Below are positions 18,285 through 21,651 of a DNA stretch of 21,651 bases, in pieces. Where the stretch lies: assembly GCA_038893995.1 (NCBI GenBank), contig JAWAQK010000011.1, forward strand, positions 33,199-54,849, read 5' to 3'. The position numbers were made by a program, and so were the translations under genes. Position 1 is the stretch's first letter; each line of letters begins with the position of its first letter. The notes beneath the pieces were generated by a model that saw nothing but the letters and a program-made list of their open reading frames with translations, was not told where the DNA came from and made no database searches. This DNA is from Candidatus Thorarchaeota archaeon (GTDB taxonomy: Archaea; Asgardarchaeota; Thorarchaeia; Thorarchaeales; Thorarchaeaceae).

Positions 18285-18644
18285 TCAATAGCCCCACTCT
18301 TGGCCCAGACGCTGTCTGTACCATCGTTGACCTCGTTTGGTCAGCGTGTAGGCGCCCTGCATCTCTTCCACGAAACCCATGCCGATCATCGACTGAAGGA
18401 CGCCGTAGAGGTTCTCCTCAGATGCATCTGTCACTTCCCTCAGGTGTGAGAAGGAAGACTTTCCTTCTCTCTTGAGTATCTGTGCCACTTCGAACTTTCC
18501 TACGGCTCTAGTCTCGCGACGCTGGATTACGTGTCCGCAGCTCGTACACAGCAGGTCACCCTTGAGGTCGTCGCGGGCTACCTCTCTGCTCCCACACATG
18601 GGACAGATGGAATTTGCGAATCTCAGTGCTCGTCTGTGTGACAT
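18285..18644 (-). CDS. TFIIB/TFB-type zinc ribbon fused to a winged-helix domain
   Basis: CPMCGSREVARDDLKGDLLCTSCGHVI matches the TFB ribbon pattern. It is followed by VAQILKREGKSSFSHLREVT...LYGVLQSMIGMGFVE...YTLTKRG. TTTTATCA lies about 30 nt upstream. Confidence 0.82.
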   Translation of the reverse strand: MSHRRALRFANSICPMCGSREVARDDLKGDLLCTSCGHVIQRRETRAVGKFEVAQILKREGKSSFSHLREVTDASEENLYGVLQSMIGMGFVEEMQGAYTLTKRGQRWYRQRLGQEWGY

Positions 18645-18699: not shown

Positions 18700-19209
18700 T
18701 CAGACGGGGTTCTCCTCTAACTCCCTGAGTGTCCGGTCGAGATCGATTCCAGCGCTAGCCCGAAAACCCGGTCGGACTCGGTTAGTGGAACGATCAAACT
18801 CTACGTACCCCCGTGAGGCCAGGTCGCGGATGTCTTCGAGAACGCTCCTCAGGCTCTTCTTTCTGAGTTGCCTAACCTCGTCCAAGGAGACCCAGTCTCC
18901 GTCACGATAGGTCAGCGATATCACAATGAGGAGTGTGGCGGCAAGACGATCCGGTAAGGTGCCTCGAACATCACTACCGGAAACAGTACGAGCCAGATCC
19001 ACATAGAACACGTCGTAGGCAGGGTTGAATCGTATGCACAGACCAAGGGGCCGAAGCTGGTAGTGTAGCCCAGCAAGCCTGCGGAACAGCAGCCCGCGGC
19101 CAATGTCACCGTGGAGTCCAAGAGCCTCCAGCATCTCGGCGACTCCGGACCCCATCGGGGCACCAGGACGCGTGAGTAGCTCCATCAGGATGGCGTATTC
19201 GTTCATCAT
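18700..19209 (-). CDS. KITE-type tandem winged-helix protein (Nse1/Nse3/MAGE-like), probable SMC complex subunit
   Basis: Two WH-like halves: LHYQLRPLGLCIRFNPAYDVFYV, and AATLLIVISL...DLASRGYVEF...RPGFRASAGIDL. Lies downstream of the smc and kleisin genes. Confidence 0.65.
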   Translation of the reverse strand: MMNEYAILMELLTRPGAPMGSGVAEMLEALGLHGDIGRGLLFRRLAGLHYQLRPLGLCIRFNPAYDVFYVDLARTVSGSDVRGTLPDRLAATLLIVISLTYRDGDWVSLDEVRQLRKKSLRSVLEDIRDLASRGYVEFDRSTNRVRPGFRASAGIDLDRTLRELEENPV

Positions 19210-19285
19210 GTTGTGCTCCTTGCTCTGGCAGACACTGGGTCGTGCAGTGCGACTACACGGTGTGAACCGTGATCATGGTCTCGTG

Positions 19286-19293
19286 TTATATAG
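19286..19293 (-). promoter_or_regulatory. TATA box (CTATATAA) between the kleisin and KITE genes
   Basis: Near-consensus archaeal TATA in a 167-nt intergenic gap, about 80 nt upstream of ATG 19209. Confidence 0.45.
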
Positions 19294-19376
19294 TCTACCA
19301 GGACAGACGTGCACGATGAATCATAGACGATATTCCAGAGACCAGGAGAGCAACCGTCTGTGGATCAGGTGGTGAT

Positions 19377-20018
19377 TCAGTCCCTGATGAGCACTCTTAG
19401 CTCAGGATCGTAGGTCAGTTCCCCTCTTGATATGAGGATGAGAACATATAGAAAACTGCGCAGGTACTTGTCAAAGTCGTCCGATGTGATCAGACTGTCG
19501 AGAGGAACGGGTATGCCCCTGGGAATAGTGACGAGAAAATCCTCGAGGTCAGTGAGCATCACAGAGGAGTCCGACTGGAGTGGAAATTCAGCCAGGACGG
19601 GGGTCTCGTCTGGCTCAGCTACCGGGGGATGTGGAGGGATCTTCCGTGCCTCAAGCAGGAGTGTCAGGTGGCGGTAGGCTGAACTCATCCGGACCGGATC
19701 CAGGGCTTGAAACTCGAGAGGCCGCGTCAGGTAGACGTGTCGGGCAAGCTCTTGCGTGCTCATCCCCCTCAACCTGTCTGCAACGAGTCCAGGAGTCTCA
19801 AGAAGTCGGACCAGCTCCTGAACTCTTGTGACCTTGCGATGCAGAATCTCGTTCAGTAATTCGTCAAGGTCTAGCTTCATCTTCAGATCCATTGCCATTG
19901 ACCGAAGTGCTCTATAAGATTCGGTCAGTCTGTACTCGAGAGGGTCTGCACGTCCTTCCCTTATGGAGTCAGCCATGTCGAGGACTCTACGTGCAAATTC
20001 CGTCATTTCCTCGGACAT
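19377..20018 (-). CDS. Kleisin (ScpA/Nse4-like)
   Basis: N-terminal helical domain with DPLEYRL (cf. ScpA DPWDIDI), Pro-rich linker IPPHPPVAEPDETP, and C-terminal WH VPLDSLITSDDFDKYLRSFLYVLILISRGEL. The ATG directly follows the smc TAG, with GGAGG upstream. Confidence 0.8.
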   Translation of the reverse strand: MSEEMTEFARRVLDMADSIREGRADPLEYRLTESYRALRSMAMDLKMKLDLDELLNEILHRKVTRVQELVRLLETPGLVADRLRGMSTQELARHVYLTRPLEFQALDPVRMSSAYRHLTLLLEARKIPPHPPVAEPDETPVLAEFPLQSDSSVMLTDLEDFLVTIPRGIPVPLDSLITSDDFDKYLRSFLYVLILISRGELTYDPELRVLIRD

Positions 20019-21651
20019 CTATGTCGCCTCCTGCTGGGAAGAGGTGAAAGTCGGACTCTCTATGATCACCGAAGGTTCGATTCCTCTTGGAGAGACCACG
20101 CCAATTCGTCTGTCTGCCTGTCGAAGCAGATGGAGGCTCTTGGCGGGAGTAAACACAATGAACTGGCTGCGGCGAGAACAGTCATGTAGCAGTACACTCA
20201 CGAGTTCCGTATTCTTTGCATCGAGGAAGATATCGATCTCATCTAGTAGATAGACGGGAGCGGGATTCATCCTCTGGAGTGCGAGGATGAGTCCGATAGC
20301 AACCAATGACCTCTCGCCCCCTGACACTCCACTCACTCCGACCGTGTCCTCACCTCTGATCCAGGTCCTGAATTCGATGCCGTATTCTCCACCCCTCTCG
20401 GTCAGTTCAAGCCGGACCTTCAGGGGAAACCTCACAACGCTGAGTACTGAGTTGATCTCGTCCTCTGCCCTGGAGAGTTTCTCCGTCATCTTGGAAACGT
20501 ACTTCTCTCTCAGGTCTGCAATCGTGGTCTCGGCCTCAGCGATCTCCTGTCTGACTCGTGACATCACATCTGCGAGTTCGCCCAGTCTGGTCCTGAGCTG
20601 TAAGTCCTTCTGGGCGATACTCTCGTTGACATCCTCATACTCACCAAGCAACTGGAGGACTGCTGCGAGATCTCCTCGGACCGTAGAAACCGACCTCACT
20701 TGCTGGGGACGCTCTGATTTGCCGAGCTCCTTCATCAGACTGTCTTTCTCAGCCGCTGCAGCCTTCAGTCGCTGAATTGTTCCCTCGAGAATGTGTCGTT
20801 TGTCCTCCTCAATCATGTAGAGCTCGGTCCGCCTCTTAGTCAGAGACTCAAGCTGCGCCCGGACCTGCTGAGCATCTGAACTGAGACTCGCCGCCGTGTC
20901 GCGGGCCCGCTCCATTTCGTGTTCAAGCACGTCGATCTCTCTCATCAGTGAGGCAGTCTCTGTTTCTGCCTCTGAGAGCGTGTTTGTCAGATCCTGCTCC
21001 CTCTGATGCATCAGGTTCAGCGCCGCCTCAAGCTCATTGATGCGGACCCTGACCGACGAGGCCTCATCGTCCAGATGTCGGAGTCCGGCATCAACATTGT
21101 CGATCTCAGAGAGGAGGCGTCTGTGTCTGTCACGTAGAGCGGAACGCGCGCCAATCAGGCGGCTCCGTTCAGGGGGCTGCTTGGAATCGAGGGACCTCAG
21201 ATGACGTTCTGATTCCTCTCTCTCCTTCGCGAGTTCATCAATCCTTGACTTGAGCTCACTGACATGCCGAGTTGACTCAGCAACTGACTCCTGAAGCCTG
21301 TTGCGTCGTTCCCAGAGGTCGCTGTTGTCGAGCTGGGAAAGGATAGTCTGAGTATCCTCCAGTTCCCTGGTCACCTGCGACTTCTGTGACTCGGCCTCTG
21401 CCACATCTCTTAGGAGATGGCTCATACGCTGCTCGATCTCTTCGAGCCGACGATGGAGCGGTGCGGTCGATACCAGACCCGTCTGCTCTCTAGGGGGATA
21501 GCTTATGGTGCTGCTCGGTCCGTGGACGAGCACATTGCCACCAGCGGTGACCACCGTGAGTGAGCCCTGGGGGACCAAGTTCATCGCGGCCCTGTTGCTA
21601 TCCACAAGCAGTACCTCACCAAGTGCACCTCTCAGTAGTTCTCTGACAGAC
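20019..21651 (-). CDS. smc: SMC-family ATPase, C-terminal half (5' end outside window), with SMC5/6-like motifs
   Basis: Frame is open to the window edge (SVRELLRGALGEVLLVDSNRAA..., hinge-like). About 330 aa of coiled coil precede VSGGERS, PAPVYLLDEIDIFLD and SQFIVFTPAK. The ORF-track start at 21605 is internal. Confidence 0.92.
   Translation of the reverse strand, partial: SVRELLRGALGEVLLVDSNRAAMNLVPQGSLTVVTAGGNVLVHGPSSTISYPPREQTGLVSTAPLHRRLEEIEQRMSHLLRDVAEAESQKSQVTRELEDTQTILSQLDNSDLWERRNRLQESVAESTRHVSELKSRIDELAKEREESERHLRSLDSKQPPERSRLIGARSALRDRHRRLLSEIDNVDAGLRHLDDEASSVRVRINELEAALNLMHQREQDLTNTLSEAETETASLMREIDVLEHEMERARDTAASLSSDAQQVRAQLESLTKRRTELYMIEEDKRHILEGTIQRLKAAAAEKDSLMKELGKSERPQQVRSVSTVRGDLAAVLQLLGEYEDVNESIAQKDLQLRTRLGELADVMSRVRQEIAEAETTIADLREKYVSKMTEKLSRAEDEINSVLSVVRFPLKVRLELTERGGEYGIEFRTWIRGEDTVGVSGVSGGERSLVAIGLILALQRMNPAPVYLLDEIDIFLDAKNTELVSVLLHDCSRRSQFIVFTPAKSLHLLRQADRRIGVVSPRGIEPSVIIESPTFTSSQQEAT

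What the first reader, a model, noticed from the sequence alone, without database searches (positions are those of the whole stretch)
20130..20330. SMC head carries SMC5/6-type substitutions in signature, D-loop and H-switch
Seen: SGGERS, LDEIDIFLD and QFIVFTP. From recall, canonical Smc has SGGEK, DE(I/V)DAALD and QFIVI(TH/SL), whereas SMC5/SMC6 have SGGERS, DEFDV(F/Y)MD (SMC6) and Q(F/Y)xxxTP with Pro at the switch position. All three sites match the SMC5/6 pattern.
Basis: partly seen in the sequence, partly recalled or inferred. Interest (0 to 1): 0.7.

Follow-up and report, generated by a model that had tools for sequence, protein, structure and literature searches.

The report
Second, SMC5/6-type SMC of a Thorarchaeon
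The motifs are real and belong to the second chromosome-folding SMC protein of an Asgard (Thor) archaeon, encoded with its own kleisin and kite partners; this SMC5/6-related archaeal complex is already published, and only one of the three motifs is truly diagnostic.

Summary
SGGERS, LDEIDIFLD and QFIVFTP are all present, on the minus strand, in the C-terminal head of an SMC gene. The gene runs off the contig; its N-terminal half lies on another contig of the same genome. The genome also has a canonical Smc-ScpA-ScpB locus, so this is a second, divergent SMC. It is followed by a kleisin-fold gene and a tandem winged-helix (kite) gene. The family is Thorarchaeal: 93 clusters keep the motifs, and 59 of 76 sister genomes carry it.

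Only the "TP" switch discriminates. It occurs in 50 of 50 members of a well-separated archaeal "P-type" clade, in 0 of 51 canonical SMCs, and in human and yeast SMC5 and SMC6. The R of SGGER also occurs in bacterial Smc and is K in yeast Smc6. The xFLD D-loop is common in canonical archaeal Smc.

In a profile test on this segment, human SMC6 scores as P-type (+21 bits) and human SMC5 is neutral (-2). By raw similarity the head is still nearer archaeal Smc.

Archaeal SMC5/6-related SMC-kleisin-kite operons were published in 2021 and 2024/25. This scan has also found the same operon before in other Thorarchaeal genomes. Verdict: a new member of a known kind.

The parts
20019..21651 (-). C-terminal 543 codons plus stop of a second, divergent SMC (end of hinge, descending coiled coil, C-terminal head). 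The gene is cut by the contig end. The whole protein is about 1124 aa; its N-terminal part is on contig C12 (L009:8021-10021:+).
   Evidence: Pfam SMC_N scores 73 bits. The N half has SMC_N, AAA_23 and SMC_hinge at 50 bits. TIGR02169 scores only 154.8 bits against a cut-off of 729. The merged length is 1124 aa.
20307..20324 (-). ABC signature motif SGGERS
   Evidence: It is kept in 89 of 93 family clusters. It is not specific: R also occurs in bacterial Smc, and yeast Smc6 has K.
20220..20246 (-). Walker B and D-loop, LDEIDIFLD; the catalytic DE is kept
   Evidence: The pattern DExD(T/I)FLD is in 93 of 93 clusters. The xFLD form is shared with many canonical archaeal Smc.
20145..20165 (-). Switch (H-loop) region QFIVFTP. 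Thr-Pro stands where canonical SMCs have (S/T)(L/H). The stretch up to the downstream A-D-x-x-x-G-V motif is two residues longer than in the genome's own canonical Smc.
   Evidence: TP is in 93 of 93 family clusters, 50 of 50 P-type SMCs and 0 of 51 canonical SMCs. It is also in human and yeast SMC5 and SMC6.
19377..20018 (-). Kleisin (213 aa). Its ATG abuts the SMC stop codon.
   Evidence: The AF2 model has pLDDT 84.6, with an N-terminal helical domain, a disordered linker and a C-terminal winged helix. Foldseek's top hits are chains 7qcd_F and 7tve_G of Smc5/6 complexes, ScpA C-WHD, CAP-H2 and Brn1, at E 0.013-0.4. VIA gives ScpA C-WHD Z 8.5 and RAD21-N Z 7.0. Synteny is conserved in 20 loci. 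There is no Pfam hit.
18700..19209 (-). Kite (169 aa, two winged-helix domains in tandem)
   Evidence: The AF2 model has pLDDT 82.1. Foldseek's top full-length hits are JetB, ScpB, MAGE-A3, MAGE-G1, MukE and Nse1/Nse3, at E 4e-4 to 8e-3. Synteny is conserved. The fold does not separate ScpB-like from Nse1/3-like.
18285..18644 (-). Zinc-ribbon plus winged-helix protein (119 aa). It is a conserved fourth gene of the Thorarchaeal operon; its role is unknown and its membership of the complex is not shown.
   Evidence: Pfam Zn_Ribbon_TF scores 33 bits. Homologues lie directly downstream of the kite in 11 of 11 Thor-type loci examined, and none does in G213.

Best explanation
The window holds the C-terminal half of the SMC subunit of a second SMC-kleisin-kite complex of a Thorarchaeon (Asgard archaea). 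It exists beside the canonical Smc-ScpA-ScpB of the same genome. It belongs to a distinct archaeal SMC clade, called P-type here, whose hallmark is Thr/x-Pro at the switch (H-loop) position. The literature calls this group 'SMC5/6-related'.

The likely mechanism is inferred from how SMC complexes are known to work. Two copies dimerise through the hinge. ATP is sandwiched between Walker A of one head and the SGGE signature of the other. Walker B glutamate and the D-loop drive hydrolysis. The 213-aa kleisin would bridge the neck of one head through its N-terminal helices and the cap of the other through its C-terminal winged helix. A dimer of the 169-aa kite would sit on the middle of the kleisin. 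The ring would then entrap or extrude DNA.

Shown here: gene anatomy, motif conservation, separation of the clade from canonical SMCs, the kleisin and kite folds, and conserved synteny. Inferred: complex formation, homodimer state, DNA activity, and any repair or episome-restricting role like that of eukaryotic SMC5/6.
For: - **Two SMCs in one genome.** This one scores TIGR02169 154.8 bits for the half protein, and its orthologue P0010 scores 282. The canonical one on C23 scores 890 bits, above the cut-off of 729, and has Pfam ScpA and ScpB genes downstream.
- **It is a true SMC.** Walker A is GPNGSGKS, and an SMC hinge, signature and Walker B are all present.
- **Family.** 93 clusters are named Thorarchaeota, Hodarchaeota or Promethearchaeota. 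59 of 76 same-family genomes have a match at E 1e-45 or better.
- **Head tree.** With 85 rows and 364 columns, 34 P-type rows stand against 51 canonical rows (bacterial, archaeal, eukaryotic SMC2/4-like) across a branch with SH-aLRT 100.
- **Nearest named P-type relatives are all Asgard.** They are Odin, Baldr, Jord, Hel and Lokiarchaeum ossiferum.
- **Switch.** TP is shared with PDB human and yeast SMC5 and SMC6.
- **Profile test.** Human SMC6 scores +21.2 bits toward P-type. That is inside the P-type leave-one-out range of +14.5 to +45.7. SMC2/4-like, bacterial and canonical archaeal proteins all score -10 to -50.
- **PDB similarity.** The paralogue P0010 reaches SMC5 at 60 bits and SMC6 at 51 bits. 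The canonical P0003 does not list SMC5 or SMC6 among its best 60 hits, the lowest of which scores 46.7 bits.
- **Partners.** Kleisin and kite folds and conserved gene order.
- **Literature.** PMC8665677 (sections 10, 11) and bioRxiv 10.1101/2024.01.07.573240 describe such operons in TACK and Asgard archaea and place them next to SMC5/6, Nse4 and Nse1/3.
Against: - I could not build a full-length tree with eukaryotic SMC5/6. None could be obtained except two 70-residue segments.
- In the 65-column tree, P-type plus SMC5 plus SMC6 are one side of a branch, but support is only 25.
- Human SMC5 is neutral in the profile test (-2.0).
- By raw score the window's head is nearer Pyrococcus Smc (65 bits) and SMC1-4 than SMC6 (21.7 bits). 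The family profile ranks SMC2 at 225, SMC3 at 193, SMC5 at 143, SMC1 at 138 and SMC6 at 133.
- The window's own segment scores slightly better on the canonical archaeal profile (88.1) than on a profile of non-Thor P-type SMCs (81.7).
- The kleisin and kite have no Pfam Nse4, Nse1 or MAGE hits. Fold search does not separate Nse-type from Scp-type.
- van Hooff et al. report that monophyly of all eukaryotic SMCs cannot be rejected (p-AU 0.317).
- No experiment exists for any archaeal complex of this type.
Confidence: 0.85

Rival explanations
1. It is a fast-evolving duplicate of the canonical Smc-ScpAB operon that arose within archaea. Its likeness to SMC5/6 (TP switch, SGGER) would be convergent or a long-branch effect. 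It works as a second SMC-kleisin-kite complex but has no special ancestry with SMC5/6.
For: Raw similarity is highest to archaeal Smc. Two of the three motifs are not specific. SMC5 is neutral in the profile test. The SMC5/6 placement has support of only 25 on 65 columns. One kite of the same operon type (G213) still hits Pfam ScpB at 28.7 bits. Monophyly of all eukaryotic SMCs was not rejected by van Hooff et al..
Against: Human SMC6 scores +21 bits toward the P-type profile, while SMC2/4-like proteins score -10 to -30. TP is shared by all four PDB SMC5/6 chains and by no canonical SMC of 51. Two independent published phylogenies of SMC, and one each of kleisin and kite, place such archaeal proteins next to SMC5/6, Nse4 and Nse1/3.
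Confidence: 0.25
2. It is the SMC-like ATPase of a defence system of the Wadjet (JetABCD) or Lamassu type, acting against plasmids or viruses rather than on the chromosome.
For: The best Foldseek hit of the kite is JetB (8dk1_E, E 3.7e-4). There are weak PADLOC hits to LmuB, mad3 and JetC. Eukaryotic SMC5/6 itself restricts episomal DNA (established knowledge).
Against: The PADLOC hits are generic head matches: JetC at 28.7 bits, and the LmuB match covers only the Walker A region. The kleisin and kite hit no JetA or JetB model, and no JetD-like nuclease or Toprim gene is adjacent. The protein has a true SMC hinge. The operon is near-universal and syntenic in one archaeal family (59 of 76 genomes), unlike patchy defence islands.
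Confidence: 0.05
3. It is not an SMC proper but an SMC-related ATPase such as Rad50, an archaea-specific SMC-related protein (ASRP) or coalescin.
For: There are weak NCBIfam hits to ASRP (56.5 bits) and Rad50 models (about 35 bits).
Against: The SMC models score far higher, at 154.8 and 109.4 bits for the half protein. A Pfam SMC hinge stands where Rad50 has a zinc hook. The length of 1124 aa compares with about 590 for ASRP. It has kleisin and kite partners.
Confidence: 0.02

Closest known systems
Archaeal 'SMC5/6-related' SMC-kleisin-kite operons (Yoshinaga & Inagaki 2021, PMC8665677; van Hooff, Raas, Tromer & Eme, bioRxiv 10.1101/2024.01.07.573240)
   Same: It is a second SMC beside the canonical one, in its own operon in the order SMC, kleisin, kite. 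It is found in Asgard and TACK archaea. The SMC is strongly divergent from TIGR02169-type Smc.
   Different: The published table's only Thorarchaeal genome lists no Nse4-related kleisin and counts two SMC5/6-related SMCs with no canonical one (with the column key). Here the in-between gene is shown to have a kleisin fold, and one of the genome's two SMCs is plainly canonical. Motif-level hallmarks were not found discussed in Yoshinaga & Inagaki.
Eukaryotic SMC5/SMC6 with Nse4 (kleisin) and Nse1/Nse3 (kites)
   Same: It uses a kite-type rather than a hawk-type complex. The TP switch and the SGGER signature are shared. The human SMC6 segment scores as P-type.
   Different: There is one SMC gene, so presumably a homodimer rather than an SMC5/SMC6 heterodimer. 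There is one kite gene with no RING finger. No Nse2, Nse5 or Nse6 was seen. Overall sequence is still nearer archaeal Smc.
Canonical archaeal/bacterial Smc-ScpA-ScpB
   Same: Same architecture and gene order, with similar subunit sizes (1249/240/182 aa against about 1124/213/169 aa). The D-loop form xFLD is shared with many archaeal Smc.
   Different: TIGR02169 scores 155-283 bits against 890 for the genome's own canonical Smc. The kleisin and kite have no Pfam ScpA or ScpB hit. The switch is TP instead of S-L or T-H. The two groups are separated by an SH-aLRT 100 branch.
Wadjet JetABC / MukBEF
   Same: It is a kite-containing SMC-like complex, and JetB is the kite's top Foldseek hit.
   Different: There is no MukB/JetC-type SMC (JetC scores 28.7 bits), no JetA or JetB sequence match and no JetD.

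Membership tests
SMC proteins proper (hinge-type) | N-terminal Walker A head, C-terminal signature plus Walker B head, and a central hinge domain between long coiled coils | tested here: met
   Walker A GPNGSGKS lies at residue 35 of the N half, and Pfam SMC_hinge scores 50 bits at residues 495-606. SGGE and DE are present in the C half. SMC_N matches both halves.
Canonical prokaryotic Smc (NCBIfam TIGR02169 / TIGR02168 equivalogs) | Score above the curated cut-off (729.4 / 567.35 bits) | tested here: not met
   The window's half scores 154.8 and 109.4 bits. The full-length orthologue P0010 scores 282.6 and 248.7. The genome's other SMC, P0003, scores 890.7 and 700.9.
Canonical Smc-ScpAB complex | Partners recognisable as ScpA (PF02616) and ScpB (PF04079) | tested here: not met
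   P0006 and P0007 have no such hits. Of 20 kleisins none hits ScpA, and of 16 kites one (G213) hits ScpB. The canonical locus on C23 has both.
Archaeal SMC5/6-related SMC complex (published class) | A second SMC coexisting with a canonical Smc, encoded with its own kleisin and kite | tested here: met
Archaeal SMC5/6-related SMC complex (published class) | Falls in the archaeal clade that is separate from canonical Smc and SMC1-4 | tested here: met
   In the head tree, 34 P-type rows including the window's protein stand against 51 canonical rows, with SH-aLRT 100. No sequence from the papers themselves could be matched by accession: no supplement is held for PMC8665677, and the G213 look-up failed.
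Archaeal SMC5/6-related SMC complex (published class) | Phylogenetic sister relation to eukaryotic SMC5 and SMC6 | tested here: inconclusive
   Only 70-residue segments of human SMC5 and SMC6 were available. The best tree unites them with P-type, but support is 25. The profile delta is +21.2 for SMC6 and -2.0 for SMC5.
Eukaryotic SMC5/6 holocomplex | Heterodimer of two distinct SMC paralogues (kappa and nu) | tested here: not met
   Only one P-type SMC gene was found in this 91%-complete genome.
Eukaryotic SMC5/6 holocomplex | Nse1 with a RING finger, Nse3 with a MAGE domain, Nse4 with the Nse4_C domain | tested here: not met
   There is a single 169-aa kite without a RING. No Pfam MAGE, SMC_Nse1 or Nse4_C hit occurs in any of 16 kites or 20 kleisins. 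Fold-level resemblance to MAGE, Nse1/3 and Nse4-containing entries is present but not exclusive.
Eukaryotic SMC5/6 holocomplex | Nse2 SUMO ligase on the SMC5 arm; Nse5/Nse6 | not tested
   No search was made. According to van Hooff et al. these were recruited during eukaryote evolution.
Wadjet (JetABCD) | JetC, JetA, JetB and a JetD nuclease | tested here: not met
   In PADLOC, JetC scores 28.7 bits on the signature region only. Nothing hits the kleisin or the kite, and no JetD lies nearby.

The most novel reading that the evidence does not exclude
The Thorarchaeal version may be a larger, five-gene machine. A catalytically dead AAA+ protein is encoded directly upstream of the SMC: P0346 on contig C12 has GPPSSDFEG in place of Walker A. 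A strongly conserved zinc-ribbon/winged-helix protein is encoded directly downstream of the kite. One or both could be undescribed subunits or targeting factors of the archaeal SMC5/6-type complex. They would be functional counterparts of the accessory Nse subunits that eukaryotes added later.
Probability: 0.2. Interest if true: 0.6.

Novelty: new member of a known kind. Interest (0 to 1): 0.3.

Why it matters
Archaeal SMC5/6-related complexes bear on how the eukaryotic set of SMC complexes arose from Asgard ancestors. No such complex has been studied at the bench.

This report adds small points to a published picture:
- A simple sequence hallmark for the class, the TP switch, with a control showing that the other two motifs do not discriminate.
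- The kleisin of the Thorarchaeal operon, which the published table did not call.
- A quantitative result that the SMC6 head segment, more than that of SMC5, resembles the archaeal class.

It does not change the field's view.

Tried and rejected
- **The search for related loci on genome contigs with the family alignment.** It picked the Walker A pattern and returned mostly bacterial Smc. It was useless for naming relatives.
- **ESM Atlas.** It returned only generic SMC-fragment clusters.
- **Word-based homologue search of the C-terminal head.** It found the Thor family but no eukaryotic SMC5/6, so no full-length SMC5/6 could enter a tree.
- **Linking to the published Prometheoarchaeum syntrophicum genes 495-497.** The closed 4.36-Mb genome G213 could not be identified, and an exact look-up of its protein found no record. 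Its three SMC loci do not fit the published gene numbers.
- **Supplement of PMC8665677.** It is not held.
- **Profile searches of the kite and kleisin against PDB sequences.** These gave only generic winged-helix hits and a weak ScpA C-domain hit at E 0.13.
- **VIA second look for the kite.** The list was filled by single winged-helix domains.
- **Q-loop region alone against PDB.** It found nothing. The resemblance of FMPQER to the SMC5 Q-loop, noted by other first readers, therefore stays untested.
- **Method note.** The residues quoted are those the tool printed for the chains.
Full report
**What is in the window**

They lie on the minus strand: SGGERS at 20307-20324, LDEIDIFLD at 20220-20246 and QFIVFTP at 20145-20165. 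They belong to an ORF at 20019-21650 (-) that is open at its 5' end, because the window ends at the end of contig C11.

The missing N-terminal 667 residues are at the end of contig C12 of the same assembly. The two pieces overlap by 86 residues at 98% identity, so this is one gene of about 1124 codons split by the assembler.

The N half has Walker A (GPNGSGKS) and a Pfam SMC hinge at 50 bits. The C half has the signature, Walker B with its glutamate, and the D-loop. This is a true hinge-type SMC, not Rad50 or a short SMC-related protein.

**It is a second SMC**

The same genome is 2.33 Mb and 91% complete. It has a canonical Smc on contig C23. That protein scores TIGR02169 at 890 bits, above the cut-off of 729. 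Its motifs are SGGEKAL, FDEIDAALD and QFIVISL. Genes that hit Pfam ScpA and ScpB follow it.

The window's protein scores only 154.8 bits for its half, and a full-length orthologue scores 282.6. No third SMC was found.

**Neighbours**

The SMC stop codon abuts the ATG of a 213-aa gene (19377-20018). A 169-aa gene (18700-19209) and a 119-aa zinc-ribbon/winged-helix gene (18285-18644) follow. The order SMC, then about 215 aa, then about 170 aa, recurs in 20 loci from other genomes.

Neither small protein hits Pfam.

*Kleisin.* The AlphaFold2 model built on a 20-row alignment has pLDDT 84.6. It shows N-terminal helices, a disordered linker and a C-terminal winged helix.
- Foldseek's best hits are chains 7qcd_F and 7tve_G of Smc5/6 complexes (E 0.013 and 0.016).
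- Next come ScpA C-terminal domains, CAP-H2 and Brn1. I could not confirm with the tools which subunit 7qcd_F and 7tve_G are.
- VIA-align gives Z 8.5 (rmsd 2.1, 61 residues aligned) to the ScpA C-domain bound to an Smc head.
- It gives Z 7.0 (70 residues aligned) to RAD21-N bound to SMC3.

These scores are modest, but the hits are kleisins at both ends.

*Kite.* The 169-aa model has pLDDT 82.1 and consists of two winged helices in tandem. Its best full-length Foldseek hits are all kites: JetB, ScpB, MAGE-A3, MAGE-G1, MukE and Nse1/Nse3, at E 4e-4 to 8e-3. The fold does not say which kite subtype it is.

**Who has it**

- An exhaustive HMMER search found only 13 representatives at E 1e-30 or better.
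- The word-based search found 93 clusters whose heads are 61-72% identical. They are named Thorarchaeota, with a few named Hodarchaeota or Promethearchaeota.
- Of 76 other genomes of the same family, 59 have a match at E 1e-45 or better. Most of these also have a second, canonical-level match.
- More distant relatives of about 1117-1190 aa occur in other Asgard families. The named ones are Odin, Baldr, Jord, Hel and Lokiarchaeum ossiferum.

**The three motifs, tested**

I obtained the residues of solved SMC5 and SMC6 chains from the PDB tool.

| Protein | Signature | D-loop | Switch |
|---|---|---|---|
| Human SMC6 | LSGGERSFS | LDEFDVYMD | QFILLTPQSM |
| Yeast Smc6 | LSGGEKSFS | LDEFDVFMD | QTIIITPQDI |
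| Human SMC5 | SGGERSVS | VDEINQGMD | QYFFITPKLL |
| Yeast Smc5 | SGGERAVS | VDEINQGMD | QYFLITPKLL |

I then aligned the same region in 101 SMCs.

- *Signature.* The R is typical of the Thor family, but other P-type SMCs have EQ, QR or QK. Bacterial-type Smc often has SGGERA, and yeast Smc6 has K. It is not diagnostic.
- *D-loop.* D-M-F-L-D is frequent in canonical archaeal Smc that sources name as Thermoplasmata, Syntropharchaeales, Methanohalarchaeum and Halobacteriota. SMC5 lacks the aromatic residue. It is not diagnostic.
- *Switch.* Pro at the second position after the hydrophobic strand occurs in all 50 members of one group (called P-type here) and in none of 51 canonical SMCs. All four SMC5/6 chains have TP. 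Counting from the Q to the downstream A-D motif, the window's protein is two residues longer than its canonical paralogue.

**Is P-type a clade, and is it near SMC5/6?**

A maximum-likelihood tree of both heads used 85 rows, 364 columns and LG+C20 PMSF with the quick search. It puts 34 P-type rows, including the window's protein, on one side of a branch with SH-aLRT 100. On the other side are 51 rows: bacterial Smc, canonical archaeal Smc and eukaryotic SMC2/4-like proteins.

I could not bring full-length eukaryotic SMC5/6 into the session. The test of affinity therefore rests on the 70-residue segment from signature to switch. Each sequence was scored as the P-type profile minus the canonical archaeal profile.

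| Group | Score difference (bits) |
|---|---|
| P-type, leave-one-out | +14.5 to +45.7 |
| Canonical archaeal, leave-one-out | -50 to -19 |
| Bacterial Smc | -35 to -18 |
| SMC2/4-like | -29.5 to -10 |
| Human SMC6 | +21.2 |
| Human SMC5 | -2.0 |

A 65-column tree joins SMC5 and SMC6 with each other (support 94) and with the P-type group, but that second join has support of only 25.

Against the PDB, the paralogue P0010 scores 60 bits to SMC5 and 51 to SMC6. That is about the same as its scores to SMC1 and SMC4. The canonical Smc scores 211-273 bits to SMC1-4 and does not list SMC5 or SMC6 among its best 60 hits.

Raw similarity of the window's head is still highest to Pyrococcus Smc, at 65 bits against 21.7 bits to SMC6. 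My evidence is therefore consistent with a special relation to SMC5/6, mainly SMC6, but does not prove it.

**What is known**

Yoshinaga and Inagaki (2021) split archaeal SMCs into canonical and 'SMC5/6-related'. Of 512 sequences, 80 were SMC5/6-related. These came mostly from TACK archaea, with some from Asgard. In 44 cases both types occurred in one genome.

van Hooff et al. (preprint, version 2 of 2025) describe whole archaeal operons of SMC5/6-related SMC, Nse4-related kleisin and Nse1/3-related kite in TACK and Asgard archaea. They propose a duplication of the whole complex in their common ancestor.

Their table lists one Thorarchaeal genome with two SMC5/6-related SMCs, no canonical SMC, no Nse4-related kleisin and one Nse1/3-related kite (with the column key). 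In the genome studied here, one of the two SMCs is clearly canonical, and the in-between gene has a kleisin fold.

I found no discussion of motif-level hallmarks in the 2021 paper.

Earlier agents of this scan reached the same verdict on the same operon in other Thorarchaeal genomes.

**Rivals**

- *A plain fast-evolving duplicate with convergent motifs.* This is not excluded. I give it about one in four.
- *A Wadjet- or Lamassu-type defence system.* This is unlikely. PADLOC gives only generic head matches, the kleisin and kite hit nothing, no nuclease is linked, and the operon is syntenic and near-universal in one family.
- *Rad50, ASRP or coalescin.* These are excluded by the hinge and by the model scores.

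**Verdict**

The object is a new member of a published class, so interest is low to moderate.

Noticed in passing
window 18285-18644 (-); also L103:4911-5267, L105:5283-5642, L114:1484-1843, L119:1405-1767 and others: The 119-aa zinc-ribbon plus winged-helix protein is very strongly conserved, including an invariant C-terminal ...RWYRQRLGQEWGY. It sits directly after the kite in 11 of 11 Thor-type loci examined, but not in the Loki-like genome G213. An earlier agent judged it not part of the unit. Its tight synteny within Thorarchaeia argues that it is at least co-regulated.
   Followed up: partly
L009:6935-8014 (+), contig C12 of the same genome, 6 bases upstream of the SMC start: This is a 359-aa AAA-like protein with a dead P-loop (GPPSSDFEG where GPPGxGKT is expected) and no Walker B DE. 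It is the same 'dead AAA+' companion that earlier agents reported upstream of this SMC in other Thorarchaea. G213 has a 475-aa ORF in the same place (L100:1558-2985), which I did not compare.
   Followed up: partly
window 21394-21651 and L009:9764-10021: The SMC gene is split between two contig ends that overlap by 258 bases, with two amino-acid differences (S/N and P/L). This looks like an assembly break caused by strain variation in the metagenome bin.
   Followed up: partly
L099:3141-7604, L100:3000-6566, L101:3177-6797 (genome G213, closed, 4.36 Mb, another Asgard family): This genome has three SMC loci. One is P-type (1188 aa, followed by 268-aa and 186-aa genes). One is canonical (1206 aa, followed by a ScpB-like gene). 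The third is a 1487-aa near-canonical SMC (TIGR02169 633 bits), followed by a 366-aa gene and a 331-aa gene with a ScpB domain. ORFs of about 1490 aa also appear in family f9.
   Followed up: partly
The genome search, family f1, genus g5: Four of five genomes of genus g5 (84-96% complete) show only a canonical-level match. The fifth has the best match of all (E 1e-120). This could be loss of the second SMC within a genus, or gaps in the assemblies.
   Followed up: no
window 19210-19376: A 167-base gap separates the kleisin from the kite here. In most other Thor loci the two genes abut or overlap, and two loci have gaps of about 430 bases. I did not examine the gap for a promoter or a small ORF.
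   Followed up: no
Supplementary Table 3 of bioRxiv 10.1101/2024.01.07.573240: Several Asgard genomes (Thor MP8T-1, Baldr, Hermod, Jord) are listed with two or three 'SMC5/6-related' SMCs and no canonical one. In Thorarchaea I see one canonical and one P-type SMC, so the published clade labels may lump Asgard canonical Smc with the SMC5/6-related group.
   Followed up: no
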